NCBI GenBank assembly: GCA_036172245.1
Contig: JAYWIR010000092.1
Coordinates: forward strand, 62,001 to 126,000
DNA length: 64,000 nt
Direction of reading: 5' to 3'
DNA from: Raillietiella orientalis
Lineage: Eukaryota
The notes below the pieces were generated by a model. The model did not search any database, was not told where the DNA came from, and saw nothing but the letters and a program-made list of their open reading frames with translations. The stretch's first letter is position 1. The number at the start of each line of letters is the position of its first letter. Shown one piece after another: positions 26,861-55,260 of the stretch. Position numbers and translations under genes: made by a program.

Positions 26861-28325
26861 AAACACCAGTGAACGAAAAGCAGCACGGCTTGTTTCCAAG
26901 CAAGGGGGAGCAGCGAACTGTCAAAACACTGTAAAGGGACTACAAGTTATTCGGGGGTGACAGCAAGTTCTTCTGGCCACCGGAGGAGTCCCTTTGAAGT
27001 ACTACGAGGAGTGGCAACGTCCGCCAACTCACTCGTCTTCCAGGCGCCAAGGAGTTTGGTTTTTCCCGCTATCCTGCAGGAAACCTCCCACCTCGCCGGT
27101 TGGCAACTGTCGTTTCTTGCACTGAGGGCAGACAGCGCTACGGCAAGAGGCGTGGCAGCCAGGGTAGAAAACTTCACCTCGTCCTGCAGTACTTCCTCCA
27201 AGGATCGTGGAAAAAATTGGCGCAGGGAACGAAGATCTTCAGGGCGTATTCCTTGGAACGCCGCTCAGGATTCAACAGACTCCTGCTGTCAAGCTTCAAA
27301 GTTCATTGGACGGCAGAAAATCCAAGAGTGAACTTCCAGAAGTGCGGTCAACTGCCGCAATGGAAACCCGAAACCCCGCTTCCTGTATTGAGTGCCCGGC
27401 AAAAGCGAGAGAAATCCTCCGCTGCCGGCGCATCTCCGCAGGAGAATGCGGGCTGGCACACACAGGGGGGATGTCCATAGCTGGGCACACAGTGCCAGCA
27501 GTCGGGACTGCAACTGCAGTCCGATTCGCTCCATTGTCAGGATACCCAAACCAGCATCCCAACGCGGAGCTACCAAATCTTTAAGGCGGATCCTGGATCT
27601 CGCCGGACCCCAGAAAGCGCTCCTGAGCAGGCGTTTAGCCCGCTGTTTTGCCCCCTAGGAGGGGTTCAAAACAAAAAACAGGGGACGGAGGAGGGGGGCA
27701 ACAAAGGTGCTTCAAATAGTCCTCCGTTCCTGCAAGGTAAACTTGCCGTTGATGAACTGGCTGACGGCCAACTCTGCTTTCTGAAGGCAGTCCTACCACG
27801 CTATGGCTGCGCCGAGAGCGGCCAACGGAACGCCAAGGTACTTAAAGTACTCGCCCGTGAAGATCCCCAGGCGGATCCAGTCTGACTGCCCCTCCCACGA
27901 CGCACCCTCTGGAACGATTACGCTCTTCTCTCTGTTCACGCTCACGCCCGCTCATCGACGAACCAGGTCGAAGGAATCTTCAACACTGGACGCCGGGGAG
28001 GACATGGGGTGCAGAAGAAGCAGGTAATCAGAGTAGACGGCCACGGCAGGCGTTCCCGGGCAGGAGCATAGCAAGTGACACAGCGCCAGCCTGTAAGCTC
28101 TAAGCACCAACTCAAAGAAGATGCTAAAGAGTAACGGGCTTAAGCTATCACCTTGCCGAATGCCCCTGCGCACGGCAATACCGTACACGCGGAAGCCGCT
28201 GGAAGTAATACACGTAAGCTCGTGGAGCCAGCAAAAGCGCAAGTAAAGCAGGAGATGCGCTGGAAATCTAAGGCGTTTTAGAAGCTCTAAGAGAAGCCCC
28301 TGGTTTACACAGTCAAGCGTCTTGT
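26860..28325 (-). pseudogene. Family A ORF2 RT/thumb fragment, broken at KAFD
   Basis: Close nucleotide match to 35880-37335. On the minus strand it begins KTLDCVNQGLLLEL; contains RGIRQGDSLSP and YSDY (decayed YADD). Confidence 0.92.
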
Positions 28326-28497
28326 TTTTTTGTATTTACCCCTTCACCCTGCTGCCTTGGTGGACCGTACCGGTCTGCGAACCGGTGACCCGGCAGGCTC
28401 TGTGTTTCTTGGTGCGTGGCTGGAGCAATGAACCAGCAAATGCAGGTATTTGTAAATGCTTATTTTAGAACAAACGCGCCGGCGAAATCCGGGTAAA
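28326..28497 (+). mobile_element. Family C 3'-UTR-only copy (about 170 bp)
   Basis: Similar to 51345-51522, with both hairpins (28369-28386 and 28479-28492). Confidence 0.85.
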
Positions 28498-28607
28498 AAT
28501 CGAACGCCTTGTGTGCTCCAGGGTGGACGTGTTTTCTCGGTGCTCCTCGTGCCAGGAAGTCTCCCCCAGTGCGAGCGTCGTGTGGTTCGGTGATCGATCA
28601 GGCAGCA

Positions 28608-29868
28608 ATGCCTGACGCGACCACCAGGGATGGACAGGGGGCAGCGAAAGCGCCACCTCCAGAGGCGAAGGAGGTGGGGGCATCCGCCCCAACAGAATCG
28701 ATCACCGCTGCAGCGCGGGCGTGAAGCGCCGTCGTGTCGGCGCTATCGCCTCCAGCCGCGGCGGAATTATCGGCCTATGTAGAAGAGGGGTACCACCCCT
28801 TATTGTTCTACAAGGTAGGCAATCTTTATTCTTTAGAGAGTGCGCGCGCCTTTTCGAAGGGCATGCGCGCTCTCGATGTGAAAGAGGAGGAGCTCAGAGT
28901 TATGACCATCCGCAGCGGGGTCAGTACGTAGAGGTCATCTGCAAACAAGCAGAGCTGGCGCAACGACTGCTTGAAACTTTCGTTGTGATGGATACGCGCA
29001 GGCTCCTCCCCACTACGGCAAACCGCAGCATGGTGGTCCGCCTGTAAAGTGTTACCGCGCGGAAGCGCAAGGAACAGTTACGCGCCGCGTTGGGAAAAGA
29101 TGGCACGGTCCATGCAGTATGGAACAAGCCTAGTCCTCTCGAGCACTATACCACAGTTTAGTGCGGCCTCACGGCTGCCCGTGTAACCGTTCGAGAGGGC
29201 TTTACCCTTCCCCACAAACTGGTGGTCAGCGGAGAAAGCGTCGACCTCTGGTACGTGGAGAAGCCCAAATACTGTGGCTTCTGCAACACGTGGGGACACC
29301 TCGAAAGGAGGTGCCCCAACGTACACTGCCTGGTATGCGGGACAATGGGCCACACGAGGGAAGTGTGTCCACAATCCGCTGTGCGCGTGGTTTCTGCGAG
29401 GAACCTGAAAAAACGCGCGCGGCTGCTACAGAAAAGGCTGGCGGCGAAGGCTGCCGCTCGAGCTGTGCCACCCACTCCCGTGGTCCAGGCCTCAGCCGAC
29501 ACCCCGGAAACGAATGCCGAAAAGATCGACAAAAGCGGTCAGGTGTCGAAATGGCAAAAAGCCACAGCGAAAAAGGAAAAAAAGTCGAAGAAAGAACGAC
29601 CAATTGAAAAAAAGCTCACCTACCAAAATAAAAAACAGCAGGTTAGCGAGAATTTAAAAGAATGCAGCGTCGTCGTGAAACGCGTCCCCGCCGAACGCCG
29701 CAAGGTACAAATCGCTGCTACCGATGAGCAACCCACTATTAAAAATGTCAACAGCGTGGAAAGCGAACTGGCGGAAGCGTCCGTCATCGAGACCGTGATC
29801 GATGATGCCGCCGTCGAGCTTGCGGCGGAGGAGCTGGCTGCATCGTTGCAGCCAGAACCCTCCAAGGC
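28608..29868 (+). pseudogene. C ORF1, 5' part (zinc-knuckle nucleic acid-binding protein)
   Basis: CGFCNTWGHLERRC and CLVCGTMGHTREVC knuckles; frameshifts upstream. Confidence 0.88.
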
Positions 29869-29960
29869 CAGTTGGAGGACGTGTTTTCCCTTCACTCCTC
29901 AAAGAGTAGTAGGAAAGCGCTTTCTTGTGGGTGGTGTTTTGTGTACATCGTCGGTGTCCA

Positions 29961-31708
29961 ATGGCCACGACGCCAGAGGACACCGCGATGGAGGTGGGAG
30001 TGGGAAAGGCTAGTTCGCCCCCACAGCCTACTGGAGCAGGGGCAGCCGCCCCGGAATCATCCCCGCCCACGCCGAGGACATGGAGCGCCATGGTGGCCGC
30101 GCCCAGCGCAGAAGCCATGGCGGAGATGGCCCCATACAAGGCCTCCGGGTACAAGTCATCGCTTGTCTACCAGGTAGGCAACTTGTTCGACGGCCGGACA
30201 GCGCGCGCCTTCAGCAAAGCGTTGATGGACGCGAATGTCACTGAGAAGGATCTGGACAGCCTCTCCGTCCTCAGCGGCGAGCAGCGGGTCGAGGTGGTCT
30301 GCAAAGATGTCACCTTGGCTCACCGCCTAATCCATGCGCCGCTGAACGTAGACGGCCGAAAGATCCTGCCAGTATCAATGGACCGCTGCGTGGTGGTCCA
30401 CATGACTGGCATCACCAGCCGCATGACGCGGTCAGCGGTTGCTAAAGAACTGCGAAAGTACGGTGAGGTGCAAGCACTGTGGCCGAAACCCTCCATTTTC
30501 GACGGCTTCGATAGCCTTTTTGGTGGGCAGGCTGCAGCGCGGGTCAACGTAAGGGAGAATTGTGGGCTTCCCCACAAACTACAGGTGCCGCAAGAAAACG
30601 TCGACCTGTGGTATGTAGGGAAGCCCCGGTATTGCGGGCATTGTGATACCGTGGGACACCTACGTAAAAGGTGTCACAATATACAATGCATTTGTGCGGG
30701 GAGCGGGGCCACGTTTGGCGCGTGTGCCCCAAACGCCCCACCGCGGTTCCCCCTGCCGCGAAAAAAGCTCAGGGGAAACGCGCTTCAAAGGTCTCTAGAC
30801 CTAAAGTGGAAAAGGGCCAGCACAAGCTGCCAACACCTCAACCTCCGGCGCGTAACCCGGAGGATAAACCTTCTGAACCGGTGGAAGGCGAAGAGGGATG
30901 GCAGCTTGTAGAGGCCAGAAAGCCAGAGAAACTCCCACCCGCGGAGAGCAAAGAGCGCAAGACGGCCGGTAAGCCGCAAAAACCCGGTCCGCGCTCGAAA
31001 ACTCTGCGCGAGTGCACGGTGGCACTGGAACGAATCGTCGTTCCCGAGGTTGCCACCCGGAGCGACGATCCTACCCTTGCCGCTTCCTCTACGCCCGATG
31101 CTCGCGACGGCGAACCCTCTGTTTATACAGAGGGTGAGCCTCGCGACATAGCGGCGTTCGAAGCCGCGGACGCCGCGTTCGCGCAGGCGGCGGAGGAGCT
31201 CGCGGTCACGCTGGCCGAGCGTGAGAACCCCTCGCGCAAGGCCGTGCGAAGGCCGGCTCCAACGAATAAGGCCCCCACAGGAGAGTTAGACCTGGGAGCC
31301 GGAAGTACATCCTCCTCCTCGGAGGCACCCCCTAGGAAGTCGGGACGCAAGTCCCAGAAGCCCAGGATGCGCCTCCCCTCCACCAGCGAGGAGAAGACGG
31401 AAGCCGTCGCCAGCGTGGGAAATTCGGAGGAGGAATTCCCACGCTCGGAAGCTGTCGATCCGGCCACCCCCATGGAGGAGGGTGAACAGGGGGGTGAAGT
31501 CCCCCCTGCAGGCGCCGACCCTGAACAGCCCGCCCCCATGGAGGAGGGCGAACAGGTAGGCGCGACTCCACCTACGGGTGATCCGGCCGACGCGCCGGCA
31601 CCGATGTAGGAGGGGGACCAGGTGCCTTCAGCACCTGACCCCCCTCCTCCACCTAGCGTCCCGCCCCAGCAGGTGGCGGACGCCGCACTGCCATCTTCCC
31701 AGGAGTAA
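29961..31708 (+). pseudogene. B ORF1
   Basis: MATTPEDT...WYVGKPRYCGHCDTVGHLRKRC; frameshift in the second knuckle (about 30690); stop at 31607-31609. Confidence 0.88.
31465..31640 (+). repeat. Three imperfect repeats of about 66 bp in B ORF1
   Basis: PMEEGEQGGEVPP / PMEEGEQVGATPP / PM*EGDQVPSAP. Confidence 0.8.
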
Positions 31709-32176
31709 CACCTGGGCTCGCCAGTCGCCGTCGGATTCGCTCGGCCTGTTGGAATGTCAACGGGCTGCGCGACGATGGTAACAGGCGAGATTCAGCCGAC
31801 ACCCTGCGGGAGTTCGACCTGGCCCTGTTGCAGGAGATCCACGTGATCACCGCGGCAGACGTTCAGGAGATCGAGACGATCGCGGGGGGTCGGCTGTACT
31901 GGCAATGCGGCATCCGCAACACCTGTGGGGTCGCGTTCTTCATGAAGCCTGCCATCGACGCTGAGGTGAAGGGCGTGCGCTTCGATGACGACGGTCGGGT
32001 CGGTCAGCTGACTCTCGGCTGGTCCGACTCGATCGATTTGATCGTCACGAATGTGTACGCCCCAACCGGTCAAAAGGGATACAGCAACCGTATCAGGCTG
32101 CTTGACTCCCTAAAGCGCGACTGGCTGGCGAACACGAGCGTGCGGAAGGCTCACCTGATAGCGGGAGATTTCAATC
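31708..32176 (+). pseudogene. B ORF2 endonuclease N-half, cut at GDFN
   Basis: CWNVNGL, LLQEIH, VTNVYAP, HLIAGDFN; continues at 44009 as LRLLTGE...IDHVF...SDH. Confidence 0.92.
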
Positions 32177-32254
32177 GAGTGCGGACGTGCTTTTCTTCGC
32201 TCTCGTCTCCGTGCTTTCATCCGCTTCATCTTGGCGTCGTACATTTTGACGACG

Positions 32255-34176
32255 ATGTCGACCCAACTTGAAGCTACTGAAGTTGGAGGAACAGCATCCG
32301 GATCTGCAATCGCGGAACCGACGGCCGCCTCCACTTCGTATTTCTCGCCAATGGAGAGGAGTTTTGCTGACGTTGCTGCCACAGCAGCCGTCAAAGGGAA
32401 ACCACTCGACGAGTCGGAGTTGCAGGCATACGTAGCCCAAGGCTATAGACCTGCTCCCCGATATAAGGTGAGTGGTTTTCTTTCTGCGCGCGACGGGAAT
32501 CAGTTCAACGATGAACTGACCCGTGTTGGCGTGCGGGAGGAGGACCTTCTCGCCATTATGCCCGTAAAAGACATGGGCTATTTCAAGGTGCGTTGCAAAG
32601 ACGCTGCACTTGTGCAACGCTTGCTGCGCACCCCGTTGTCGATCCGTGGCCAGAAGGTCTTCCCGGCCGACATGGACGACTCATTTGTGGTGGAGATTTT
32701 CGACATCGAGGCGGAAATCTCCGATACTGATATTCGGAACGCGTTGGCGAAATTCGCCACGGTCCATGCGCTGTATAGGGTGCGTAGCAACCTCAAGGAC
32801 TTCCCGTCCATACACAGCGGAGTCGCTGGAGTCCGGCTTACAATGCCGGACCGCCGGCTGCTGCCTACCAAACTACAGGTGAATGACACGGTCGTTCACC
32901 TGTGGTTCGTGGGCAAAGTAAAAACGTGCGAGCAATGCGGGAAGGAGGTGCATTGTTTGGATAAATGCCCCTCTGGAAAATGCAATTATTGCAAACTATC
33001 CGGGCACCAATTGAAAAATTGCCCGGATCTTTTGCGAAAAAAGGCAGCCGCGGAGCTCCATTTTAAAAAACAAAGCGCGGATAAAAAGAAAAAATCTGCG
33101 AAAAACCTGGAGACCCCACGGCAGAAATTCGGTAAAAACGCGAGGCGGAATGTCGCCCCAAAGCAGCAGGAAACCTCGCACGCGAAGCCCTGCGCACCCC
33201 CTCTCGCGGCAGGGGAGCAGCAAAAGAAAGGGTGCGGGGAATCCGGGGCAATGGCAAGTCCCCCTAGGCGCAATAGCTGTCCTTCCCAAGCTCGCCCGGC
33301 TCTCTCGGAGTTCGAGCAACCGGCGGGGACGTCAATGGACAACAGCGGTAAGGACACTTCCAGTACCGTCAGATCCATTCCTTCACCTCCTGCAGTGGCT
33401 GAGAAGCCCAAATCGGGTAAGAAGGGTTGTGCCGTGTCGACTTCGAAAGTCGGCAAAAAAAATCCGCGTCGCGATCCAACACCGCGAAAGCGGAGAAAAA
33501 TCTCACGCCGTCGCAGTCGGAGAGCAAGCTCTCGACTGGCGCGGATGCCATGCCAACGAAAGGATTAAAAGCCCTTCCGAAAGCAGCGTCCATGACGAGC
33601 GTGTCGGAGCCATCGAAACTGCTCCCGTCCAAAGACGCGGATGGCTTCAAAGATGGCCATGGAGCACAATCTCCATTTACGGCGACACGCAAAGTGAGGA
33701 ACCGTAATGAAGTAAAGAAGACTTCAGCACAGGTCCCTCGTGCAACTGCGCGTGAGCACGCTGAAAACGCGCGCGCCGGGAAAGCAGCCGTCACCAAAAG
33801 CGATGCTCTGGTGACGGAAAACGAAAACAGGACAGCTGTCAATCCAGCAGAACCTGTCACTGCTTCGCGGAAGGCCGAAATCCGATCGAACATGCGCCGG
33901 TCGGACTCCGAAATGGATGCCGTTCCGATCACCGAGACGAGGACAACTCGTTCGAAAGCGTGTGCGCGCCGATCAAAAGTAGGCAGCCAGGCAACGCTCG
34001 CCGCGAAGCAACGCGAAGTCTCCACGAAACCCGACGGGGTTCAGCCTGGCGTGGAGGCATTACATGCATGCAGCACGACAGAGGAAGGTGGCGACCGTCC
34101 CCTCCAGCCAGTCGTGCTGCTCGCCGTCTGCTCGCCGGATAAAGCGAGCAAAAAGCCGCCACCTTCCCAGCAGTAA
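32255..34176 (+). pseudogene. A1 ORF1 (zinc knuckles plus long low-complexity tail); one -1 frame break near 33460
   Basis: CEQCGKEVHCLDKC and CNYCKLSGHQLKNC; TAA at 34174-34176 overlaps the ORF2 ATG. Confidence 0.9.
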
Positions 34177-37100
34177 TGCGGGGAATCGCGTCTTCTCGTC
34201 GTCTGTCCGTAACGTGTTGGAACGTGAACGGACTGCAGAACGACGAGAAGAGGCGATTAGTAGCCAACGCCCTGCGCCCTTTCGACCTCGCGCTCCTGCA
34301 GGAGATTCACGTAATCTCCGACGAGCAGGCAGCCGAAATCGAGGAGCGCGCAGGCGGAACGCTACATTGGCGGTGCGGCGGCGCACACACGTGCGGTGTC
34401 GCGTTCCTCGTGAAAGGAAAAATGGCGGAAGCGGTGCGTAGTGTTCGTTTCGATGACGACGGACGGATAGGCCAGCTTGTCATCAAGTGGTCCGAGTCCA
34501 TCGATCTCGTCGTTACGAACGTCCACGCGCCGAGTGGCTCTCGCTTCCTCGAAGAAAGAGTAGCTTTCTTTGGTGAGGTGCAGAGCCACTGGCTCAACAA
34601 CTCCGGTTTCCAAGTGGCGCACCTCGTCGCTGGGGACTTCAACGGCCGCCTGCTCTGCGACGATTGGAGCCGCCCGAGGGAGCGCGCGCTGCCCATCGAG
34701 ATGTGCGCGTCCGTACACGCCGCCAACTTGATGGTCAGCGAACCTGGAATGGAAAGATCGCTCGATTACGTTTTCCTCGATGAAAACCTGCATTCGCGTG
34801 TGGGTAGGAGAGCAAGATTGTTGACTAGGCTTTCTGACCACCACAGGTTGGAGTTTGAGATCCTTCCGCCAGGCAGGGGGCCTCCGTTGCAAAACTAAAG
34901 GATGCAGGCGGATTGGCTTAGCCAACCAGGGGCTGCGGAGCATCTACGTGGATACCTCCGAGGCTTTGCCATTCAAGAACTTGCGGACTGGGACGATCTC
35001 AAAAGATCTGTCCTCGAGTTCTGCTGCCAATTCCCCTTGCACAGGCTTCCACGCGGTTTCGGAGAGGGCGTGGCCAACAGTAGAGACTTTCTGCAGGCCC
35101 GCACGTTTTCGAGACGCGCGGATGTCGGGCGTCTCGCAGAGTACAAGGCGAGGGCCGAGCGCCAGGTCTGGCAGTCCGGAGCAGCATGCCTGTTGGACGA
35201 CAAAGGCCAGGAATGTTCGGCCCCAGCCGAAGTACGCCGCATTGTGAGACGCTACTACTCCTCGCTGTACGCGGAATCCCCGACGGAGGATATTCTTTCT
35301 GAGATACTCCTGTCTCAGGATGCTCGTGTTGTCGGCGAGGAGGAACGCGAACGTCTCGACGAGCCCTTCACGGCGGATGAATTTTCGTCCGCCATCGCTG
35401 GGCTGAAGAGACGAAAGGCGCCAGGCGAGGATGGGCTCCCTGCAGAGTTTTATCAGTGCTTTGCAGTGGAGCTCATTCCTTTGATGCTGAAACTCGCGAC
35501 GCTGATGAGTGAATACGGAAATGTCCCTGATTCCTTCCGCTCAGCGAAGGTGCGTCTCCTGCCGAAAGGCGGAGACTTGCGTTAACTTGACAACTGGCGT
35601 CCGATCACCTTGGTGAACTCGGACGTCAAGTTGTTTTCCAAGCTGTGGGTCGCGCGGTTAGGAAGTATCGCGGAATCTGTGGTGAGCCGGGAACAAAACT
35701 ACGCGGTTCCGGGACGATCCATGGAGGCGAACATCCTTTTCGCGCTTACATGGATGCAGATGCAGGAAGTTGTGGCGCAGCAAAGCCAGGCTGCTGCGAA
35801 AGTCACTGCCGCAGGCAAGAAGAACAGGCGCCGACGGCAGGAGGGAACGCCAGGTGCCTTGCGGTCGCGGTCGATCTCCACAAGGCGTTCGACTGCGTAA
35901 ACCAGAAGCTCCTTTTGGAGCTTATGGAACGCCTTGGGTTCCCGGCGCAACTCCTGCTGTATTTGCGCGCGTGCTGGCGCCACGCGCTAACCTGCATTAC
36001 TTTCAGCGGCTGCCGCGTGTATGGTATTCCCGTTCGTAGGGGCATCCGACAGGGCGACAGCTTAAGCCCGTTGCTCTTCAGCATCTTCTTTGAGTTGGTG
36101 CTAAGAGCATACAGGCTGACGCTGTCTCACTTGCCAAGCTGCTGCCCGGGAACGTCTGCCGTGGCCGCCTACGCTGATGACCTGCTTCTTCTGCTCCCCA
36201 TGTCCACCCCGGCGTCCAGTGTCGAGGATTTCTTCGACCTGATTCGTCGGGGAGCGGGCATGAGCGTGAACAGAGAGAAGAGCGTGGTCGTTCCTGTGGG
36301 TACGTGGTGGGAGGGGCAGTCCGACTGGATCCCCCTGGGGATACCCACGGGCGGGTACTTTAAGTACCTTGGCGTTCCGTTGGGCGCTTTCGGCGCAGCC
36401 GAAGCGTGGGCGGACTGTCTTCAGAAAGCAGAGTTGGCCATCAGCCCGTTCTTTAACGGCAAGTTTACCTTGCAGGAACGGGCGACTATTTGGAACACCT
36501 TTGTGGCCTCCCTCCTCCGTCCCCTGTTTTTTGTTTTGGACCCCCCGTATGCGGCTAAACAGCGGGCTAAACGCCTGCTCAGGAACGCTCTCTGGGGTCC
36601 GGCGAGATCCAGAATCCGCCTCAAAGATTTGTTTGCTCCGCGTCGGGATGCTGGTTTAGGTATCTTAGCAATGGAGCGAATCGGACTGCAGGTGCAGTTC
36701 CGACTGCTGGCACTGTGTGCCCAGCTATGGACATCCACCCTGTGTGTGCCAGCTCGCATTCTCCTGCGGAGATGCGTCGGCAGCGGAGGATTTCTCTCGC
36801 TTTTGCCGGGCACTCAATACAGAAAGCGGGGTTTCGGGTTTCCATTGCGGCATTTGACCGCACTTCTGGAAGCACACTCTTGGATCTCCTGCCGCCCAAT
36901 GAACTTTGAAGCTTGGCGGCAGGAGTCTGTTGAATCCTGGGCGGCCTTCCAAGGAATACGCCCTCAAGATCTTCGCCCCCTGCGCCAATTTTTTCCACGA
37001 TCCTTGGAAGAAGTACTGCAGGACGAGGTGAAGTTTTCTACCCTGGCTGCCACGCCTCTTGCCGCAGCGCTGTCTGCCCTCAGGGCAAGAAACGACAGTT

Positions 37101-37768: not shown

Positions 37769-38167
37769 TCATTGCCCTACCCTCCATAAACTAAATTTGT
37801 ATTTTCTTTTACACCCGCGTCCCCATAGGCTCCGGAACATTTGAGGTGCTCATCGTTTAAATCCCCGTGAGTACGGAGCCTAACCAAAAACCCTTTTCCC
37901 TTCCCTCCAGTTTTTGATTTTTGTTTGTTTCCCCTCATTCCCCCCACGCTGCGAGCGGTTTGTTTACCAGGCCTGCGTGGCGGTAATTTTTCTATGTTCT
38001 CTGTCGTTCTGTTGGTTGGGGACATTGTCCCTGACCAGTTTATTATTATTAATAAACGCCCCGGCGTGACCGGGTGATAAATTTCAATCGAGTGCGGACG
38101 TGTTTTTCTTCGCTCTCGTCTCCGTGCTTTCATCCGCTTCATCTTGGCGTCGTGCATTTTGACGACG

Positions 38168-43687: not shown

Positions 43688-44008
43688 TCATTGCCCTACC
43701 CTCCATAAACTAATTTTGTATTTTCTTTTTACACCCGCGTCCCCATAGGTTCCAGAACATTTTAGGTGCTCATCGTTTAAATCCCCGTGAGTACGGAGAG
43801 TAACCAAAAACCCTCATCCATTCCCTCCAGTTTTTGATTTTTGTTTGTTTCCCCTCATTCCCCCACGCTGCGAGCAATTTGTTTACCAGGCCTGCGTGCC
43901 GGTAATTTTTCTATGTTCTCTGTCGTTCTGTTGGTTGGGGACATTGTCCCTGACCAGTTTATTATTATTAATAAACACCGCGGCGTGACCGGGTGATAAA
44001 TTTCAATC

Positions 44009-47000
44009 TCCGTCTGCTAACAGGTGAGCCCGAAACACAAGTGAAAGCGATGAACGAGTTGTGCGCCGATATGCGTGCGGGCAACTTGTTCGCGGGTGAG
44101 AGGGGAATGGTCCGTAGCATCGACCACGTCTTCCTCGACGCTGACCTGTGTTCACGGGACGGCAAACGGGAGAGGGTTGCGTCAACGTTGTCGGACCATT
44201 CCCGGTTAATTTTCGAGATGCGGCCTCGCAACAAAGGACCGCCATCCAGGGACTGTCGTCTACCCGGTGACTGGACGCGACTCTCAGGTGCGAAGGAACA
44301 CCTTCTCGAATACCTGAGAGGCGTCACGCTCCGGAATCTCCAGGACTGGTACCTTTTTGGGTAATCTGTCCGGCAGTTCTGCGAGCAGTTCCCCCTGGAC
44401 CGCCTGCCCTCCGGATTCGGCGAGGGTCCTTGCAACCATCATGCCTATTTACAGGCCTGTAGGTACGAGCGAACGTCTAATGTCCGTCGCCCGGCCCAGT
44501 ACCGCGCCGGGGCCGAACGCCAAGCCTGGCAATCCCGGTCGGCCAGCTTGCTGGACGACTAGGGCCGGGAATGTTCGTCCCTGGCGTCGTTACGGCATCT
44601 CGTGCGGAGTTATTATTCCTCCCTTTACGCCAGGGCGCCCCCGAATCAAGAGGCCTCTCGGCTTTTGCTTCCGGATGGTGCCGCGTCAATAGGGGAGGAG
44701 GAGTCGTTAAGCCTCGATGAGCCTTTTACCACCGGCGAAATTCTCGCCGGTATCAAAAGGCTCAAGAAGCCGAAAGCTCCAGGGGAAGACGGCTTGCCCG
44801 CGGAGTTCTATCAGAGCTTCGCGGAAGAGCTGGCACTCCTGCTGCTTCAGCTGACAAGACTGATCCGAGACGAAGCCGATGTTCCCGCCTCGTTTCGGTC
44901 AGCCAGAGTGAGGCTCCTTCCGAAAGGGGGAGACCTTAGGAATTTGAACAACTGGCGTCCTATCACGATTGTGGATACGGACGCCAAGTTGGTTGCCGGG
45001 CTATGGGCTTCGCGTATGGGGCAGGTGGCAGAATCCATAATTAGCCAGTAGCAGAAATATGCTGTTCCCGGGCGAAGTATGGATGCCAACCTCTTCTTCG
45101 CGAGCACATGGATGCACGCGCAGAGGTGTCAAAAGGAAGGGAAAGGAAAAATCGGCAACCCCACTTTGCGGCCGCCAGCAGGGCAGGAAATGGACTCACA
45201 GGCGGGGAAGGGGGCCTTAGCACTCGCAGTTGATCACCATAAGGCGTTCGACTGTGTTGACCAGGAGATTTTGGAGGAGCTCCTGGTTCGCATGGGCTTC
45301 CTACCCTCCTTGATTACCTACCTGCGCTCTTGCTGGCGGAAAGCGATTATCTCCATCTCTTTCAGTAGTCAGAAGGTGAATGGCGTGCCAATGCGGCGGG
45401 GCATCAGGCAGGGAGATAGCCTGTGTCCCTTGCTCTTCAGCACCTACTTTGAGTTGGTGCTGAGAGCCTACTGCTTGACTTTGACCTCCTTGCCTTGCTC
45501 GAGTCCCGGCACGCCCGCCGTAGGAGCCTATGCCGACGACCTTCTGCACCTGTTACCTATGCCCTCCCTGGCAAAGGCGGTCGGAGACTTCTTCGATCTG
45601 CTCAGCCTTTTGATCGGACTGCAGGTCAACAGGGCGAAGTCGCCGGTGGTGCCAGTAGTTGCGGCGTGGGCCAAGTAGCAGGACTGGGTCCGTCTGGAGA
45701 TCCCCACGGCGAGGTGCCTCAAGTACCTTGGTGTGCCGTTGGGTGACTACTCCCCTGCGGAAGCGTGGTCCAGTGTCTTCAAAAAGTTGATAGAGCGATC
45801 GGCCGGTTCCTGGAAGGCAAGTTTCACTTGCAGGAACAGACCGCGGTTTGGAATGCTTTTGCGGCCCCCATCCTCCGCTTCTTGCTTTTTGTTTGCCCAT
45901 CCACCGTGGAATCGAAGAAGAGGAAGAAGGACCTCCTCCGTATCGCCCTTCGGGGCAAGAGAAGGCCCCGAGTCCCTCTGAAGGACTTGTGCGCTCCGCG
46001 TCGGGATGGCGGCCTTGGCCTCCTGACGCTGGAGCGCGTGGAAATCCAGCTGCGGTTTCGAACCCTCGCCATCCCAGCGAAAATCTGGAGCACCCCTTGG
46101 TGCGTTCCGGCCCGCCTTCTTGCCAGGCGTGTGTCCCGATGAGAAGGACTCGCGTCGTTTCTTCTGTGCCCTGGCCGGAAGATCCGAAGATGCGGCCTTA
46201 TGCTTGGACGCATAGCAACCCTGGCGAAGACGGACGGTCGCATGGTTTGTGGTCCCGCCAACTTCTCCGCCTGGTTGCAGGAGTCTGCTGGCACATGGGC
46301 CAAGCAGAACCGGAGGAGTGAAAACAATATGGACTGCCTGCGAATCGGCCCATACGCCAACCGCACCCTGCGGGAAATACTGGAATTTCCCCGGAGTCGC
46401 AGGTGGGCGTTGACGACCCCTCTTGCAACGGCGATGCCCTACCTCCTGAGGGCGCTTCAGGATCGCCGGAAGCCGAGGTGGTAAGTCACCTGCCAGATCG
46501 CAGGCAGGGAGAAGATGTTAAGCGGCTGGACCACAGGAGAACTGGCGAACGCCACGACCTTGAGCGTCCAGCCGCGTGGATTAATGAGATGGGGCGAGCT
46601 GCTCGCCATCCCTACGGATGTGCTGAAGTGGCCACCGGTACTAAAGGAATCCAGGATCCTGCCCCTTAAGTGGCAAGAGTCGGCGTTGCTACTGCTGCAC
46701 TCGAGTTTACCCTGCAACGCACGCTGCTTCGACTGGACAAGGGGAGCTGTGGATCCTGAGTGTGTCAGGTGCGGAGAGCGCGAATCGCTCTCCCACCTCA
46801 TTGTGGACTGTGCTGCCATGCGAACCCTCTGGGAACGGTTCGGGGCGACCCTCGGGCTCCCTACGGGCAGCACCCCCAGAGACGTTCTTCGGCCCCTTTT
46901 TGTGAAGGGCGCACTGCAGCCAGCCGCAGCCAACGCAGCCTCGTGCTGTGTCCGTGGCATTGTGGCGGCATGGAGCGACGCCAATAACGAAGGAGTGGGT

Positions 47001-47140
47001 CCACACGCGATGGATGTCATCCCATACGCCCAACGCTTGATGCGGAGAGCTGCCGGATGGCCCCAACTGGGGAATATACGGACAGACATGAGGGCTTCCT
47101 TCAACGGATGGGCCCTGCTTACAGCGTTTAGTGATCTCTT
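44009..47140 (+). pseudogene. B ORF2 remainder (endonuclease C-half, RT, CCHC finger)
   Basis: IDHVF, SDH, PGEDG, VDHHKAFD, GIRQGDSL, AYADDL, CVRCGERESLSHLIVDC; several stops. Confidence 0.93.
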
Positions 47141-47725
47141 CCCTGCCCTTCAACTTCTCTTTGTCTGTTTATTTTTTATTTTTCTTTTTGTTTTATCCTC
47201 ATCCCCCTTCGCTGCTGAGGAACGCTACGCTGGGCTGCGTGCCGGCGTCCTGGCAAGTCCAGTGTATATGGCCGTGAGCGGGGCCTTGTACCGCGGATGT
47301 AGAGTTTTAACAATAAACGCCCCGGGCGTACCCGGGAGTATACCTCCAAGGCTGGCAAAAAGCGGTGAGGCGTCCGGCCTCCACCGAGGAGTCGGTTAAT
47401 TCCGACCCCGAAGCGCAGGCCGGAAACCAAGTTACCATCTCCGCGGCACCCCGCCCGAAGGCTGGAAGGAAGTCCAGCAAACCCCGGAAAGCCCCTCTCC
47501 AGGTCGAAGGCGTGGAGATTTCTTCCGACTGCGAGGGTGCCATGAGCGTGGGAGAATACCGGGAATCGAATCACCCGAGAGACCACCACGCACAGACACG
47601 GAGGAGATGGAGGATGTTGAAGCTGGAAAGGTACTCAAGGTGCCTGAAGAGGCTGAAACCCTAATGGTCATCTCACCCGCCTCGGAAGAGGCGGTTTCCC
47701 CCACACCGTCATCTTTCAGGCAGTA

Positions 47726-50700
47726 ATGCCGGAAATCTCCTCCCGCCGTCGTCTGCGCATCGCCGTTTGGAACGTGAACGTGATGACAGACGCCGGCATG
47801 AGACGAGACATGGCCGCCATTCTAGGATCGTTCGACCTTGTGCTGCTGCAGGAGATCCATGTGATCTCTGCAGAACAAGCGCAGGAGATCGAACGCATCT
47901 ACGGAAGGCGGCTGTGGTATCGGTGTGGAACATCGAGAAGTTGTGGTGTCGCTTACCTGCTTCGGCCCGCCATCGAGGCCGCCGCTCGTGGAGTTCGGTT
48001 GGACGATCACGGTCGTGTCGGCCAGCTGACTCTCAGCTGGTCCGACTCGATCGACCTGATCGTTACGAACGTTTACGCCCCGAGCGGAGCGGACCTGACG
48101 AACAGGAGGGCCAGGAAAGAATTTTTCCTTGCCCTCCATCGCGACTGGTTGAACGAGGCAGGCGTGCGGAATGCCCATCTGGTTGCAGGGGATTCTAACG
48201 ATCGTTTGAAACCGGATGGGCCGAATCACGAGCGTGACCTGGTCAACGAGGTGTGCGCGGCGGTGCACACTTGTAATTTGTTGGTCAGTATACCAGGGAT
48301 GGAGGACAACATCGATCACGTGTTCCTTGACGAGCACCTGTGCACTCGTGTGGGCAGGCGCTGCAAGTTGCCGTGCGAGTTGTCCGACCATCGACCAATC
48401 GTGATTGAAATCCATCCGCGCGACAGGGGCCCCCCCTTGTCAGCGTGGCGTTTGCCAGGGGACTAGCTGAAGCTCCCGGACGCGACGGAATATCTCCGCA
48501 CGTTTATACGGAGCTTTAGGATGCAGACATTTCAGGATTGGGACCGCTTCAAGCGGTCGGTCCAGGAGTTCTGCGACCAGTTCCCACGGCACCGCCTACC
48601 TTCGGAATTTGGGGACGGGATACGTAACAAACGAGCCTATCTGCAGGCTCGCCGTTTCGCTAACACCCCCGACATACGCAGGCTGGCGGAATACATAGAG
48701 GGACCCGAGAGGCAAGCCTGGCAGTCAGGATCTGCCAGCTTGCTGGACGATCTGGGCCAGGAGCACTCGGCACCTGCCAAAATCCGCGGCCTGCTGCAGA
48801 GTTACTAATCCTCCCTGTATGCCAGGGCACCTCCGGAGAGGAACGTCTCACGACTCCTGCTTCCGGAAGGCGCTCCAGCGATCGGGGAGGAGCAGAGAAA
48901 GACCCTCGACGAGCCTTTCACGATGGGCTAGATCATCTCGGCCATCTTAAAGCTCAAGAGGCGAAAGGCTCCAGGGGAGGACGGCCTGCACGCGGAGTTT
49001 TATCAAACTTTCGCGGCTGAGCTAACCCCCCTGGTACATCAACTCACCTTGCTGATACGCGAGACAGGTGACGTTTCCGCCTCGTTTCGTTCGGCAAAGG
49101 TGCGGCTTCTCCCTAAGGGAGGAGATCTGAGGAGCATGAACAACTGGCGTCCCATCACAATAGTGAATGCGGATGCCAAGTTGATAGCTAAGGTTTGGGC
49201 TGAGCGCTTGGGACGGGTTGCAAACGCCTTCATCAGCCCGGAACAGACGTATGCTGTTCCTGGGCGAAGCATGGAGGCGAAGCTGTTCCACGCTTCCACC
49301 TGGCTAGAGCTCCAACACGAATGGGGCTTGATGCGCACCGGGAATTCCGGTGAGTCCGTCAGTCATGCGACGGATGTTCGGATGGGGGAGGGAGCACTTG
49401 CGGTCGATGTCGACTTGCGTAAAGCATTCGACAGCGTCGACCAGAATCTCCTGCTGGAGCTTTTGGTACGCTTGGGCTTCCCGGCCTCATTTTTGGCCTA
49501 TCTGCGCTCTAGCTGGCGCGATTCGCAAATGAATGTAACTTTCAGCGGGCATACTGTTCACGGCGTGCCGGTGCGACGTGGGATCCGGCAAGGAGAAAGC
49601 CTGAGCCCATTGCCCTTCAGTACCTACTTTGAGTTGGTACTGAGAGCGTACAGGGAAACTCCGGCGCACCTGCCGCATCAATGCGCCGGAACGCCTGCGG
49701 TTTCAGCATATGCGGACGACCTCCTGCTACTGCTACTTATGTCCACCCCGGCTTCGGCGGTCGAGAAGTTCTTCGACCTGCTGAATCGAGGAACCGGGCT
49801 TACGATGAACAGGGCGAAGTCGTCCGTGATGCCAGTTGGTGCGGCGTGAGCAGGGCAGCAGGACTGGGTCCGTTTAAGAATCCCCACGTTGAGGTACTTC
49901 AAGTACCTTGGTGTGTTGTTGGGGGACTACTCCCCTGCGAAAGCGTCGTCCGGCTGTCTTCAAAAAGGAGAGACGGCTATCGGCCCGTTCCGAGGCGGCA
50001 GGTTTTTCCTGCTTGAACGGGCCGCGGTTTGGAACATGTTCGCTGCTCCTCTCCTCCGTTCCCTGCTTTTTGTTTGCCCCCCCACAGAGAGGATCAAAAA
50101 GCGGACGAAGGACCTCATCCGTATCGCCCTTTGGGGCAACGGGAGGGCCCGAGTCCGCTGAAAGGACTTCTGCACTCCGCGTCTAAACGGTGGACTCGGC
50201 CTCCTGACATTGGAGCGGCTGGAGCTGCAGCTCGAGTTCCGGATTTTGGCACTTGTGCCGGAGTGGTGGTGCACCTGTTGTTGCGTCCCTGCACGTCTCC
50301 TCCTTCAGCAAGCCACCGGCAAGACGGGACTTACGTCGTTTCTTGCACTCCATCGAAGCCGCATCAGCCGATGTGGGCTTCAGCTACGGAGGGTGGCTGC
50401 GCTTGCAAGGAAAAATCATCGATGGATCACCTGTCTCCCCGCGAACGGTAGTGCCTGGTTGCAGGAAACCGTTCGCACGTGGGGACAATTCGGCATGCAA
50501 CCCTCCCATCAGGAACGAAGGTTCCTGTTTGGGTGTTACAGAAGTTGCACGTTCCGTGAGATCCTGTAGGATCATAAGAAGAGAGCGTGGTCAGGAATAA
50601 CCCCCCTCGCTGCTGCGCTGGACTCCCTAGTGGAACATCAGGACAGCGATGTTGCGGCGAAGTGGGAGGTTACAATAAAAATCTAAGGGAAGGAGGAGCA

Positions 50701-51308
50701 GAGAGAGTGATAGACGGGCCAGCTAACTGATGCTGCGACCCCGAGTACGCCTCCTAATGGACTTCTGCGCTGGGGAGCGCTGCTGGATGTTCCGATTGAA
50801 CATCTTAAGTGGCCCCCGATTCTTATGAACACTTCCATCCTCCCCCTAAAATGGCAAGAGTCGGTATTCCTGTTGTAGCACTGGGGACTCCCCTGCAACG
50901 CCCGTCGACACCACTGGACCTGGGGAGCGGTGGATCTTAATTGTGTAAGGTGCGGGGAACGGGAGTCCCTCCCCCACCTCCTAGTGGATTGTGTTGCCCT
51001 TCGGCCCCTTTGGTTCCGCTTCGCCGCGGCCATCGGTATCCCACGCGGCAACCCCAGGGACGCACTAAAAGCCTTCTTCGTTGACGACCCATTGCGGCCA
51101 GCGTCCTCGATAGCAGCCTTGTGCTGCCTTCGTTGGATCGTCGCCACCTGGAGCACGGCCACGGGAGGACCTAGCGATATGGACGCCATCCAGTGCGCCT
51201 CCCATTTCCTGAGGAGGGCGTCGCGATGATCCCACCTGGATGTTCATAACAAACAAGAGCTTGTCAGCATCCTGAGAGGGATGATGCGGCCCCAGCAGCA
51301 TCAGTGAT
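47726..51308 (+). pseudogene. C ORF2 (endonuclease, RT, CCHC finger)
   Basis: WNVN, LQEIH, GDSN, IDHVF, SDH; DLRKAFD, GIRQGESLSP, AYADDL; CVRCGERESLPHLLVDC; many stops. Confidence 0.93.
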
Positions 51309-51522
51309 CCCTTCCCGTTTCCTCCCACTTTTTGTTTCTTTTTGTTTAGTTTTTCTGTTTTTCCTTTTTCCCATGCTGCCTTAGTGGACCGTACCGGTCT
51401 AGAAACCGGTGAATTGGCAGGCTCCGTGGTTCTTAGCTTCTGGCTGGAGCATTGCCACAGCCATTAATTATTACTTTATAAAGTTCATTTTATAATAAAC
51501 GACCCGGAGAAATCCGGGTGAA

Positions 51523-54500
51523 AATCGAACGCTTTGTAGAGATCGACGGCGACAGCTAAGGCTCCCGGCGTTCCATCGTGCCTTGAACACCGCCGCTTAC
51601 CTTTGGCAGCGGCGATTTCGGCTGCCTGGCTCTGCTGCGCCACGCGCTCCAGCAACTCCAACTATGTTCGCGCGAAGAAGAGATTCGCGTCCAAGGACCG
51701 CCCCGAAACAGCATACGTCTGCTCCGGACTTACCAAGGACTCCGCGATTCTCCCCAAGCGAGCAAACCATAGCATGTAGAACAATTTGACGTCCGAATGC
51801 ACCAAGGTTATCGGACGGCAGTTGCTGAGGTGGCGCAAATCACCGCCATTCGGCAGGAGCCGCACCATTGCTGAGCGGAAAGAAGCGGGAACCTCTCCCG
51901 TCTCACACATCAGCGAGGAAAGACTTAGCACCAGGGGGACGAGCTCCGCCGCGAAGCACTAAAAGTACTCCGCGGACAGGCCATCCTCCCCAGGCGCCGT
52001 ACGCCTCTTTAGGCCCGCTATGGCGGGAGATACTTCTACCGCCGTGAAGGGCCAATCCAATCTGGCGCGTTCCCTTTCGTCGATAGCAGGGTTACCCGTC
52101 TGAAGAAGCAGCTCGGAGAGACTGCGTTCCGTGGGCTCCTTCGCGTACGAAGAAGAGTAGTAGCGCTTGACTACGCGGTGTACTCCTGCTGCAGCCGAGC
52201 ATTCCTGGCCAGCGTCATCGAGCAGACAAGCCGCTCCAGACTGCCAAACCTGGCGCTCGGCCCTCGCCTTGTACTCCGCCAAACGCTGGACGACCGGGCA
52301 TCGGGAGAAGGTACGCGCCTGCAGATAGGATCTGCTGTTCGCGACACTTTCCACGAAGCCGCGGGGAAGCAGGTGCAAGGGGAACCGTCAGGATTACTCC
52401 CGGACCGATCTTCTCAAATCGTCCCAGTTCTCGAGTTCACGGATGGCAAAGCCCCGGCGGTGTTGTCAAAGATGCTCCACCGCCTCCGAATTGCTAAGCC
52501 AGTCGGCCGCCAACCTCCAGACATCCATCGGAGGCCCTTTGCCAGGCGGGAGGAGCTCGAACTCCAGTCACCGATGATCCGAAATCGCGGACAGCAGGCG
52601 CCCTCTCCGACCTACTCGTGAGAGCAGGTGTTCATCGAGGAACGCATGGTCCGGCGAGCTCTCCATCCCGAGCTCACCAGCAAGCAAGTTTTGCACGCGA
52701 ACGGACGCGCATACCTGGCTCACCAGTTGCTTCTCCCTCAAGCGGCATCTCTCCTCTGTTAGCAGGTGGACGTTGAAGTCTCCTGCAAGGAGGTGCGCCA
52801 CGTTAGGGCCGGAGACAGCGAGCCAGCGGCTGCGCAGGCCACCCAGGAATGCAAGTCGCTGGGCGAAATGCCGGCCGCCGCTCGGCGCGTAGATATTCGT
52901 AACGACCAGGGCGATCGATTCGGACCACTTGAGGACAAGTTGGCCCACACGACCTTCCTCGTCGAAACAAACGTTCCGCACCGCCTCCGCCACCCTGCCT
53001 CGGACGAGGAACGCGACTCCGCACGTGTGCGCGGAGCCTTGCCGCCAGTGTAGCGTCCCGCCCGCGCGCTCTTCCAGATCCGATGCCTGCCGTACGGAGA
53101 TGCTGTGTATCTCCTGCAGCAGCACCAGATCGAACGCGCGCAAAGCGTTGGCAACCTTCCGCCTTTTGTCAGCATCACATAGCCCGTTGACATTCCAACA
53201 GGCCACGCTGACGCGACGAGCGGACGCGAGTCCACGCATCACTGCTGCTGAAATGACGGCGTGCTCCTCGCCGTGTCCGGCGAGAAGTCATCTGGTAAGA
53301 GAGCGGATTGGGAAGCGGAATCGCTCCCGTTCGCCGCCACATCGCACCCAGCTGAGTCCTGGGAGCCGAGGATGATCGCCTCGGTCTCCGTGCAGGAGCC
53401 GGAACCGCCTCCGGCAACAGGCTCTTGCTTCCGCAGTTAAGCCCGGCGCGCTTGCTGGTTATCCCGAGATGCGCGCACTCTTTGGTTGCAATCGGACTCC
53501 ACCTCGGATTCCGAGTGCCTGGCGCGAGACTGGCGTTTTGCCTGTCTGTTTTTCTTTCGGCAGGTGGAGGCTTGCCCTGCCCTCGCGGGGTTCGTCGCAG
53601 TCGCCAGCGGAGCGTCCGGAGCTTTGAGTTCCGCAGCCGCCCTCTCGCGCGAAGCGACGCAGACAGAGCACGCAGCCGTAGTGCTTACCTGGGTACGCAC
53701 CTTCTTCGGCGTGCTTCTCTTTTGCCTCCCACCTACCTTAAGGATGGGGAATATTGAAGGGTCAACCTTCTTCTTCTCCTTTGTGGGCGTTCTGGAGACT
53801 CGAGTCCAGCCCGCGTCGGGGACGCCCTCCTGGGAGGCCGACGCTTCCCTCAATTGTTTGGCCGGAGATGCCGGCTCACGTTTCGCGCTCGCGGCGGGAG
53901 ACGGCTCGGTCCCCGTTACGCACTGCACCTGCTCCTTAGCCGATGCGGGCGAAACGGCGGTCATTGCAGTCGTCCCGCGAGGCGCTATTGCAGCCTTCGC
54001 TGCTCGTGCCTTCGGCGAGGAAGACGTGATCTCCACCGCCGTAGGAGACTGCCGTTCAGAGGCAGCTCTGAGGGTACCCGCGCACGGTTTCCCGTGTGCT
54101 CCGCTGGACGCGCAAGCGGACGCGGACGGTTCAGCAGCCTTGATTGAGTGCGTGCCCGCACTCTTAAGCTGCTTCGAAGGGGGCGATTTGCCCCCAGGGC
54201 GACGTGGCATCTTACCCGTCTGCGCGGTTCTCTAGGATGGTGGCTTTCCTGAAGCAACCGCGGCCTTTTTCGCGGTACCGCCACTCAAAGATGCCCCGCC
54301 CTTCGCGCCCGATTTCTACCGTGGCACAACGGAAGATCTTTTCGGCGCGGACGGGGTGGATTGTTGGCGGCTTTTCGCCTGCCTCTTTCTCTTGAGCTCG
54401 GCGCACTCTTTGATGGAGTGGCCGAGCTGTTTACAATAGCGGCAGTTGCGTGAAGGGCACGTCCACGGACGGTGGCCTTCCGCACCGCAAATGCCGCAAG

Positions 54501-55260
54501 CCGGTGGCTGACCGGCAAATTTAAGGTGGACGATCGCATCGCCCACCTGCAAGTGAGGAGACATTTGCCTCCTATCCGCCATGGTGACACGCGCCATGGC
54601 AAGTCCGCTGTGGAGAGATGCAATGCTTTTGATCGGATTATCTGCTCTCCACAGCGCGTGCACCGTGGCGAATGCACTTAGTGCACCGACGAGCACGCGA
54701 TCGGGCGTGTCCACCTGGACGGCGGATAATCTTACCACGAACGACTGGTATATGGCCTACGGGACGACCTCCTTCCCGCGGATATTTAGCGGGGTGCGGA
54801 GAAGGCGCTCGACTAGGGATGCCTCTTTGCAGTGCACCTCCCAGTGTCCGAGCGCGTTAACCGGCATGATGGGCAGGAGGTCGTCCTGTCGGACCCCGAC
54901 GAGCAAAAGCTCGTCCCACAAATTTTCTCCGACCCCGTCGGAGATAGAAGCACTCAGCGGATAGCAGAGCGCAGGCTTGTAGCCATGGGCTGCATATGCC
55001 TGCAGCTCTGCTTCGTCGGGCGGTGCTCCGTTGGCTGCCGCCGCCTTGACGACGGCGGCAAAGCTTCTCGCCGGTGGCGAGACACAAGAATAAGAGGCGG
55101 ACCGGACAGCTGGAGTAGAGTCTCCACTGCCAGTAACAGCCTCCACATCCATCTTTTGCTGCAGAAGCTCCGTGGACATCCCAGTAGACGCACTGGGGCA
55201 CACCACACACAAGAACACGGAAAGGAATCACGCTCGAGGAGCAACACAGAACACGTCAGT
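51523..55260 (-). mobile_element. Family D (sister of A): 5' end, ORF1, endonuclease and start of RT; broken at KAFD
   Basis: TGACGTGTT near the 5' end; CGICGAEGHRPWTC and CRYCKQLGHSIKEC; endonuclease 53239->52568; ends PGALAVAVDLYKAFD at the C 3' junction. Confidence 0.92.

What the first reader, a model, noticed from the sequence alone, without database searches (positions are those of the whole stretch)
28311..55260. Four-level Russian-doll nest resolved by TSDs
Seen: a host RT (A on the left, D on the right) contains C (15-bp TSD). C contains B (TSD CCTCCAAGGC at 29859 and 47343). B contains A1-A2 (TSD ATTTCAATC at 32168, 38081 and 44000). Removing each insert restores the interrupted protein motif (QPEPSK|AGKK; HLIAGDFN|LRLL). 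Inference: insertion is cyclic (C into A/D/E, B into C, A into B, D and E into C), so the families were active together and keep landing in one another.
Basis: partly seen in the sequence, partly recalled or inferred. Interest (0 to 1): 0.75.

Follow-up and report, generated by a model that had tools for sequence, protein, structure and literature searches.

The report
LINEs that target each other cyclically
Several related jumping-gene (LINE) families in this genome each land mostly at their own fixed base inside the protein-coding motifs of sister families, and the preferences close into a loop (A into B, B into C, C into A), so the nest is built by aimed insertion rather than by chance pile-up.

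Summary
The inner nest is real: A1-A2 sits in B (ATTTCAATC, three copies) and B sits in C (CCTCCAAGGC, two copies), and excision restores both motifs. The outer level is misread. 'C' is a recombinant of two subfamilies, and the exact partner of its left target copy lies 40 kb away, beyond the window, where host A resumes. The nest therefore reads A > C2 > D > C > B > A1/A2.

Genome-wide the nesting is site- and strand-specific. 86 of 94 A-type 3' ends sit on GDFN codons, mostly B's. 41 of 45 B ends sit on one C-ORF1 site. 77 of 100 listed C ends sit antisense on RT KAFD codons of A, B, C, D and others. Empty sites occur in this genome and in an independent run. The best explanation is target-primed insertion by an L1-group LINE radiation with family-specific target sites. 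Endonuclease-driven specificity is inferred, and Tx1 membership is not shown.

This scan already noted GDFN and KAFD targeting on other DNA of this genome. The counts, the closed loop and the recombination reading are added here.

The parts
26857..28324 (-). 3' half of an older family-A LINE (RT from the KAFD motif onward); true outermost host. Its 5' half lies beyond the window at window-coordinate 68216-69468 (L151). A degraded left target copy is at 28311-28324.
   Evidence: 90.9% to A copy L001; 5' half 93.9%; frame reads ...VVFH|KTLDCVNQ across the gap
28325..28499 (+).
   Evidence: 84-91% to C-b loci, 72-84% to C-a loci; 89% to L071
28500..28513 (+). Target copy TCGAACGCCTTGTG (antisense of host A's KAFD codons); exact partner at window-coordinate 68216
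   Evidence: 18/18 match 28496 vs 68212
28514..29868 (+). 5' part of 'C' (ORF1), a recombinant: first ~500 nt C-b-like, from ~600 nt C-a-like; crossover near 29010-29110. Ends in B's left target copy (29859-29868).
   Evidence: 100-nt window identities
29869..32176 (+). B, 5' part: ORF1 and N-terminal endonuclease, ending in A's left target copy (32168-32176)
32177..38080 (+). A1, full-length 5904-bp LINE (ORF1, APE-RT ORF2, broken by stops and frameshifts); the younger tandem copy
   Evidence: 96.7-97.9% to 12 other full copies; distance to others 0.028; Pfam PF03372 and PF00078
38081..38089 (+). Middle target copy ATTTCAATC
38090..43999 (+). A2, full-length 5910-bp LINE, 95% identical to A1; the older tandem copy
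   Evidence: distance to others 0.049
44000..47342 (+). A's right target copy (44000-44008) and B 3' part (rest of ORF2, 3' end AATAAA-hairpin, no poly(A))
47343..51524 (+). B's right target copy (47343-47352) and C-a 3' part (end of ORF1, ORF2, 3' end)
51525..55262 (-). 5' half of D (5' end to KAFD), host of C-a; begins on the + strand with target copy TCGAACGCTTTG. D's 3' half is absent.
   Evidence: 93% to D copy L096; 14 of 16 full D copies are empty at this site
55263..55998 (+). Middle part of C2 (C-b type): D's target motif CTVIVERI at its left, an empty B site at 55453, E's target motif EQAQEI at its right
55999..60724 (-). E, antisense in C2's endonuclease region; itself split in ORF1 by a distant LINE (K) with 10-bp target copies at 60725 and window-coordinate 66642

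Best explanation
[quoted passage not shown] Each family prefers its own short DNA site, and those sites lie in conserved coding motifs of sister families. A inserts sense into the endonuclease GDFN codons, mostly of B. B inserts sense into the QPEPS codons of C's ORF1. C inserts antisense into the RT KAFD codons of A, B, C, D and others. D inserts antisense into C-type ORF1 CxVVVER codons. E inserts antisense into endonuclease EQAQEI-type codons. Every new copy brings new sites for other families, so nests and tandems grow, and the preferences close into loops (A into B into C into A). Shown: fixed base and strand per family, target duplications, empty sites, 5' truncation, several host families for C. 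Inferred: (i) the family's endonuclease reads the site, possibly helped by pairing with flank sequence carried on the RNA, since there is no poly(A); (ii) this locus was A > C2 > D > C-a > B > A2 then A1, and recombination between the 5' parts of C2 and C-a then removed D's 3' half, which gives the A-left/D-right junction.
For: A: 12 of 12 full copies carry the same 9-bp TSD at the GDFN site. Of 94 exact A-type 3' ends, 91 were shown with flank: 71 exact, 15 GDFN-like variants, 5 unrelated (counted by eye). Six of the 8 others were fetched; 4 are other families sharing the last ~45 nt. The GDFN site was filled in 15 of 30 B copies picked by their 5' part and in 0 of 87 A, C and D sites. B: 30 of 30 5' ends and 41 of 45 exact 3' ends. 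C: 77 of 100 listed ends antisense on KAFD-like codons, with hosts A, B, C and D. D: 30 of 30 5' flanks and 27 of 39 3' ends. E: 28 of 30 and 34 of 45 among the first 100 rows. Of 12 off-target C copies fetched, 11 are 5'-truncated with a left copy of the downstream flank (about 14-16 bp in 10), and that left copy itself starts TCG or TCTA, so the core is target-derived. Filled and empty B copies are intermixed on the tree (11 changes; shuffled 10.2-10.4). Run X1 has contigs joining 29858 to 47343 and 32167 to 44000 (empty sites), and joining C's 5' end antisense to B's KAFD site. The C mosaic and the 18-bp match at 68212 support the deletion.
Against: Specificity is graded, not absolute. 21 of 100 C ends, 12 of 39 D ends and 11 of 45 E-type ends are off the main site, and family G has only 1 of 16 listed ends on its D site. 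Some matches are segmental duplicates (minimum pair distance 0.000-0.001 in C and D; identical triplets on C11 and C13), so counts exceed independent events. The independence tests are weak: the B tree has 1 starred branch of 27, and the Mantel test (r=0.05, p=0.30) has a positive control of only r=0.18, p=0.04. None of 3 full B copies fetched has an unbroken ORF2. Loci were picked by similarity, which favours uninterrupted copies. The flank-display patterns hide matches with T at the last position; this was quantified only for A. No read or contig bridges the 28.3-29.9 kb junctions as assembled. No biochemical test exists.
Confidence: 0.83

Rival explanations
1. Hitch-hiking: each nested junction arose once or a few times by chance and was multiplied by segmental duplication or by co-mobilisation of composite elements.
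For: Near-identical duplicates exist. Nests are clustered, and recombination among copies is evident.
Against: C sits at the homologous base in at least four host families. A occurs at GDFN in non-B hosts (L012). Filled and empty B copies are intermixed. A and host-B distances are uncorrelated, though with weak power. Tandem re-insertions and truncated copies share the same 3' junction. Off-target C copies keep the same core.
Confidence: 0.07
2. Chromatin-directed clustering (for example centromeric, as proposed for Zepp) plus only a weak endonuclease preference; fixed sites reflect the few good cut sites in a repeat-dense compartment, or selection against other insertions.
For: On-target copies lie in LINE-dense blocks (83-100% LINE cover in most blocks examined, 49% in one). 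Off-target C copies are short. G is loosely targeted.
Against: The same blocks offer GDFN sites in A, C and D, yet 0 of 87 were filled, against 15 of 30 in B. Strand and base are fixed per family. Chromatin could still add to sequence targeting.
Confidence: 0.08
3. Assembly artefact: collapsed or chimeric repeats create the nest.
For: The A/D outer junction is chimeric and is not bridged in run X1. Many nests lie on short contigs or near contig ends.
Against: TSDs and restored motifs; the same junction types on dozens of contigs; X1 shows both empty sites and an independent C-into-B junction. The crossover lies inside C homology and both outer halves are present in order.
Confidence: 0.02

Closest known systems
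Tx1-clade target-specific LINEs (Xenopus Tx1 into Tx1D; crocodilian Tx1-Mar into Mariner-N4_AMi; Tx1-9_AMi into Harbinger; Tx1-8_Crp and Tx1-4_AMi into LTR retrotransposons). Passages of PMC4494074
   Same: Non-LTR elements with a fixed site inside another mobile element, fixed orientation per site, tandem copies sandwiching a TSD; the paper attributes target choice mainly to the endonuclease.
   Different: The targets here are protein-coding motifs of sister LINE families, and the relations close into loops. The RT tree does not join these families to the best named hit, Danio BAC82609.1, whose Tx1 identity I could not confirm.
Zepp (Coccomyxa/Chlorella) and ZeppL (Chlamydomonas) L1 LINEs. 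Passages of PMC3446292 and PMC8226300
   Same: L1-type LINEs that insert into existing copies and build nested clusters.
   Different: Zepp targets itself, leaves mostly 3' ends and forms one cluster per chromosome. Here at least five families target one another at distinct sites, many copies are full-length, and one contig can hold several blocks.
Nested group II introns of Methanosarcina acetivorans. Passage of PMC4424553
   Same: Repeated site-specific homing of retroelements into other retroelements, balanced by deletion through homologous recombination, giving a perpetual landing site.
   Different: Those are self-splicing introns in an archaeon. These are eukaryotic APE-RT LINEs with TSDs, and an insert breaks the host's reading frame.
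Human LINE-1 (L1 ORF2p, PDB 8sxt and others)
   Same: Best solved-structure match (E 4.6e-45, against 6.9e-16 for R2); APE, RT and Cys-rich C-terminus in the same order.
   Different: No poly(A) tail here, ORF1 has CCHC knuckles, and targeting is far stricter than L1's loose T-rich preference (L1 preference recalled).

Membership tests
L1 group of non-LTR retrotransposons | ORF2 with N-terminal APE endonuclease, RT and Cys-rich C-terminal region | tested here: met
   Intact A ORF2: PF03372 2.8e-12, PF00078 3.3e-21, zf-RVT weak (E 0.021; C-a 0.00039, both under the cut-off)
L1 group of non-LTR retrotransposons | RT closest to L1 among labelled references | tested here: met
   L1 ORF2p 4.6e-45 against R2 6.9e-16; tree places the six families in the group with plant and animal L1-like proteins, SH-aLRT 89, long branch
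L1 group of non-LTR retrotransposons | TSDs and 5' truncation from target-primed reverse transcription | tested here: met
   9-16 bp duplications; 11 of 12 off-target C copies 5'-truncated
L1 group of non-LTR retrotransposons | 3' poly(A) tail (typical of mammalian L1; recalled) | tested here: not met
   3' ends are AATAAA, a short GC-rich inverted repeat and 2-4 A
Tx1 clade | RT groups with named Tx1 elements | tested here: inconclusive
   No verified Tx1 reference in hand; the families form their own clade with P0001 (100*), not with BAC82609.1
Tx1 clade | Target-sequence preference (more than 20% of flanks in one repeat type, the criterion in PMC4494074) | tested here: met
   A 86/94, B 41/45, C 77/100, D 27/39, E 34/45
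Tx1 clade | Host is an animal | tested here: inconclusive
   The 18S rRNA (L148) looks arthropod-like by my recall only; no database comparison was available
Tx1 clade | Isolated endonuclease cuts the target site | not testable with these tools
   Needs biochemistry
Zepp / ZeppL | Insertion into own family | tested here: inconclusive
   C into C 3 of 30; A into the body of A 0 of 16; tandems are common (22 of 91 for A)
Zepp / ZeppL | One cluster per chromosome, putatively centromeric | tested here: inconclusive
   Copies lie at several distant places on C5, C13 and C26; the assembly has 491 contigs and there are no centromere data
Zepp / ZeppL | RT phylogeny with Zepp | not tested
   No Zepp sequence was available from a tool

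The most novel reading that the evidence does not exclude
A self-sustaining, non-transitive guild of LINEs. Each family has evolved to aim at codons that rivals cannot easily change (catalytic GDFN, RT KAFD), which gives a renewable safe landing site and disables the rival copy, while families such as A differ from the target at their own homologous site. Endonuclease specificity and target-codon usage would then coevolve and drive the radiation.
Probability: 0.3. Interest if true: 0.9.

Novelty: new variant of a known kind. Interest (0 to 1): 0.72.

Why it matters
Site-specific LINEs are known to use multicopy RNA genes, microsatellites, DNA transposons, LTR elements or themselves as targets. 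A set of sister LINE families that supply each other's targets in a closed loop would be a landing niche made only of LINEs, and would explain how such repeat islands build and shrink. It also offers closely related ORF2 proteins (54-71% identical to A) with at least five different DNA targets. That is a direct test system for how APE endonucleases gain sequence specificity, and for whether conflict between elements drives their diversification. My literature searches found no report of such a loop, but the library lacks most subscription papers and Repbase.

Tried and rejected

2. A donor-carried leader alone as the cause of the A/D mismatch: rejected, because the host differs over 1.4 kb and C is mosaic.

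3. Random nesting in TE-dense DNA: rejected by the fixed base and strand.

4. The E-site rows of the occupancy matrix: dropped, because anchors cross-matched between families. The 'not-empty' G-site rows for B and C are not insertions. Clusters 3 and 4 are false 3'-end matches.

5. Folding of 3' ends: a 4-7 bp hairpin forms in all 5, but only C is clearly beyond shuffles (z -2.69; others -1.54 to 0.21). It is not counted as evidence of a conserved RNA structure.

6. Direction of tandem growth in A: the upstream copy is closer to other copies in 6 of 8 pairs, the other two tie within 0.001, and differences are small. Suggestive only.

7. No RNA holder was listed. A2's interior had little cover in X1 because reads map to A1.

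8. The first homolog search with a frameshift-chimeric ORF gave only 7 hits. The Atlas search gave generic APE clusters.

9. Literature searches with nothing on a mutual-targeting loop, judged from listings: 0 papers; one paper held 'target each other', unrelated; 0; 1; passages read, not relevant; 9, unrelated; 1, unrelated. One search did not identify BAC82609.

10. No structure prediction was run.
Full report
OBSERVATION. The window is G000:C92:62001-126000, in a 210-Mb, 491-contig genome. From about 19 kb onward it is almost wholly non-LTR retrotransposon sequence. ATTTCAATC occurs at 32168, 38081 and 44000, and CCTCCAAGGC at 29859 and 47343; shuffles give 0.29 and 0.10 per window. All five copies sit between a host and an element end. 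Element 5' ends carry a GGACGTG-like word; 3' ends carry AATAAA, a short inverted repeat and 2-4 A, without poly(A). Excision restores HLIAGDFN|LRLL and QPEPSK|AGKK.

THE OUTER LEVEL. A 5'-truncated C-b 3' end lies at 28325-28499. The 18 bases at 28496 recur exactly at window-coordinate 68212, after a C-b 3' end and before the 5' half of an antisense A (93.9%), which continues the A half at 26857-28324. The 5' part of the window's C is C-b-like for about 500 nt and C-a-like from about 600 nt. C2 at 55263-55998 and the pieces at 67448-68213 are C-b. The simplest history (inferred) is A(-) containing C2; C2 containing D(-) and E(-); D containing C-a; C-a containing B; and B containing A2 and then A1. 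Recombination between the 5' parts of C2 and C-a then deleted D's 3' half. Family A is thus both outermost and innermost. No contig of run X1 bridges this crossover, so a local misassembly is not excluded. Left and right hosts also looked discordant in L076 and L077, and concordant in L071 and L083.

WHAT THE ELEMENTS ARE. Intact ORF2s of 1208-1217 aa exist for A (L001), C-a (L061) and C-b (L071). They carry APE endonuclease motifs, RT and a weak zf-RVT-like end; ORF1s have CCHC knuckles. The best solved relative is human L1 ORF2p (4.6e-45; R2 6.9e-16). In a quick RT tree of 57 rows (6 families plus 51 of 96 database hits), the families and one metagenomic protein form a long-branch clade within an L1-like group, apart from Danio BAC82609.1. 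They are L1-group LINEs; Tx1 membership is not shown.

GENOME-WIDE TARGETING (flank classes from pattern searches were counted by eye). A: 12 of 12 full copies have the same TSD at the GDFN site. Of 94 exact ends, 91 were shown: 71 exact, 15 GDFN-like, 5 unrelated, and 22 are tandem. Six of the 8 non-target ends were fetched: 4 belong to other families, 1 is a 74% relative, and 1 is an 88% A copy elsewhere in a sister LINE. B: 30 of 30 5' ends follow C's QPEPS site (28 direct, 2 tandem), and 41 of 45 3' ends are on it. C: 24 of 25 intact ends in fetched loci are antisense on KAFD or tandem to it. Of 112 exact ends, 100 were listed: 77 on KAFD-like codons, 2 sense in the same motif, 21 elsewhere. 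D: 30 of 30 5' flanks and 27 of 39 3' ends. E: 24 direct, 4 tandem and 2 other of 30; 34 of 45 E-type rows among the first 100 of 155. In the fetched loci, the GDFN site was filled in B (19 of 34, inflated by A-selected loci; 15 of 30 when B was picked by its 5' part) and in 0 of 16 A, 0 of 43 C and 0 of 28 D sites. KAFD was filled by C in 3 of 18 A, 4 of 25 B, 3 of 30 C-a and 2 of 16 D sites (anchors may include close relatives). So A into B, B into C and C into A all occur, as do C into B, C into C, and D into C with C into D. Against a strict picture: family G fills one D site in 9 of 29 D copies but shows that flank in only 1 of 16 listed ends.

INDEPENDENCE. Filled and empty B copies are not clustered on the tree (11 changes, 410 of 500 shuffles as low; only 1 of 27 branches starred). 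A distances do not track host-B distances (r=0.05, p=0.30), but the positive control is weak (r=0.18, p=0.04). Stronger evidence is C's use of the same base in four or more host families and the off-target copies. Of 21 off-target C ends, 12 were fetched; 11 are 5'-truncated and show a left copy of the downstream flank that starts TCG or TCTA. Some duplicates inflate the counts. Run X1 (one study, 0.21 of words) holds contigs that skip B exactly (29858 to 47343) and A1-A2 exactly (32167 to 44000), and one that joins C's 5' end antisense to B's KAFD site. These are single contigs laid at 88% likeness.

MECHANISM. Shown: TSDs, truncation, fixed sites. From established knowledge: target-primed reverse transcription, with target choice set mainly by the endonuclease (passage of PMC4494074). 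Inferred: each family's endonuclease reads its site (about 0.7), perhaps aided by flank carried on the RNA. In 4 of 9 full-length B copies with both ends known, the left target copy has a recurrent variant that the right copy lacks (2 of 3 confirmed directly). Mean pairwise divergences of top-scoring copies overlap: A 0.034, B 0.029, E 0.030, D 0.056, C 0.107 across two subfamilies. This fits concurrent activity, though none of 3 full B copies fetched has an unbroken ORF2.

COMPARISON. Tx1-clade elements target DNA transposons and some LTR retrotransposons (PMC4494074, passages). Zepp and ZeppL nest in themselves (PMC3446292 and PMC8226300, passages). Methanosarcina group II introns home repeatedly into other introns and are pruned by recombination (PMC4424553, passage). 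The primary papers cited there were not read, and no supplements were read; those of PMC4494074 list further Tx1 targets and could bear on novelty. Ten searches showed no listing that describes sister LINE families targeting each other's coding motifs in a loop. Most subscription journals and Repbase were not searched. This scan had already noted GDFN and KAFD targeting and fixed sites on other pieces of this genome; those are unchecked AI notes and not independent support.

VERDICT. The nest is real, with the outer level corrected. The system is a new variant of a known kind (target-specific L1-group LINEs), unusual in being mutual and cyclic. Interest 0.72.

Noticed in passing
window 21600-26260 (+): Family F (related to C and B) ends at 26260, antisense at the FAI(Q/K)EL codons of an A/D-like host. 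A further family fills the equivalent site in 2 of 31 B copies.
   Followed up: partly
window 60735 to L151:2641 (+); second copy 17902-18648 (-): A distant LINE (K, about 25% amino-acid identity to A ORF2) splits E's ORF1 with 10-bp target copies TGCAGTGGTC; its ORF1 start holds a GC-rich 27/48-bp tandem repeat at 60850-61061.
   Followed up: partly
window 5085-7298: An old E-like copy (-) is interrupted at KAFD by an old C-like 5' part (+), about 70% identical to the young copies, which suggests the same targeting in older relatives.
   Followed up: no
window 1-1120 and 12048-13166: A 1.1-kb inverted duplication at 97.3% identity, unrelated to the LINE library.
   Followed up: no
D copies L104, L106, L107-L117, L158: Two more families insert antisense at fixed sites in D's ORF2: G (9 of 29 sites) and H. 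G is loosely targeted genome-wide.
   Followed up: partly
G000 C36:1955683, C48:232287, C50:516533, C60:289147, C17:2586024, C17:3625967: Related 3' ends are followed by a recurring flank of the type CTCCC..TCCAGTGG, a possible further target of unknown nature.
   Followed up: no
G000 C11:4629717-4642200 and C13:2461203-2473686: Three C junctions recur with identical spacing and flanks, inverted, on two contigs: a duplicated block.
   Followed up: no
L061 (C1:11508063) and C8:425512: C inserted in sense orientation at a TCGA a few bases upstream in the same RT motif.
   Followed up: partly
L148 (C360:594-2426): A full 18S rRNA gene, with several partial copies on large contigs; arthropod-like by recall only.
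   Followed up: partly
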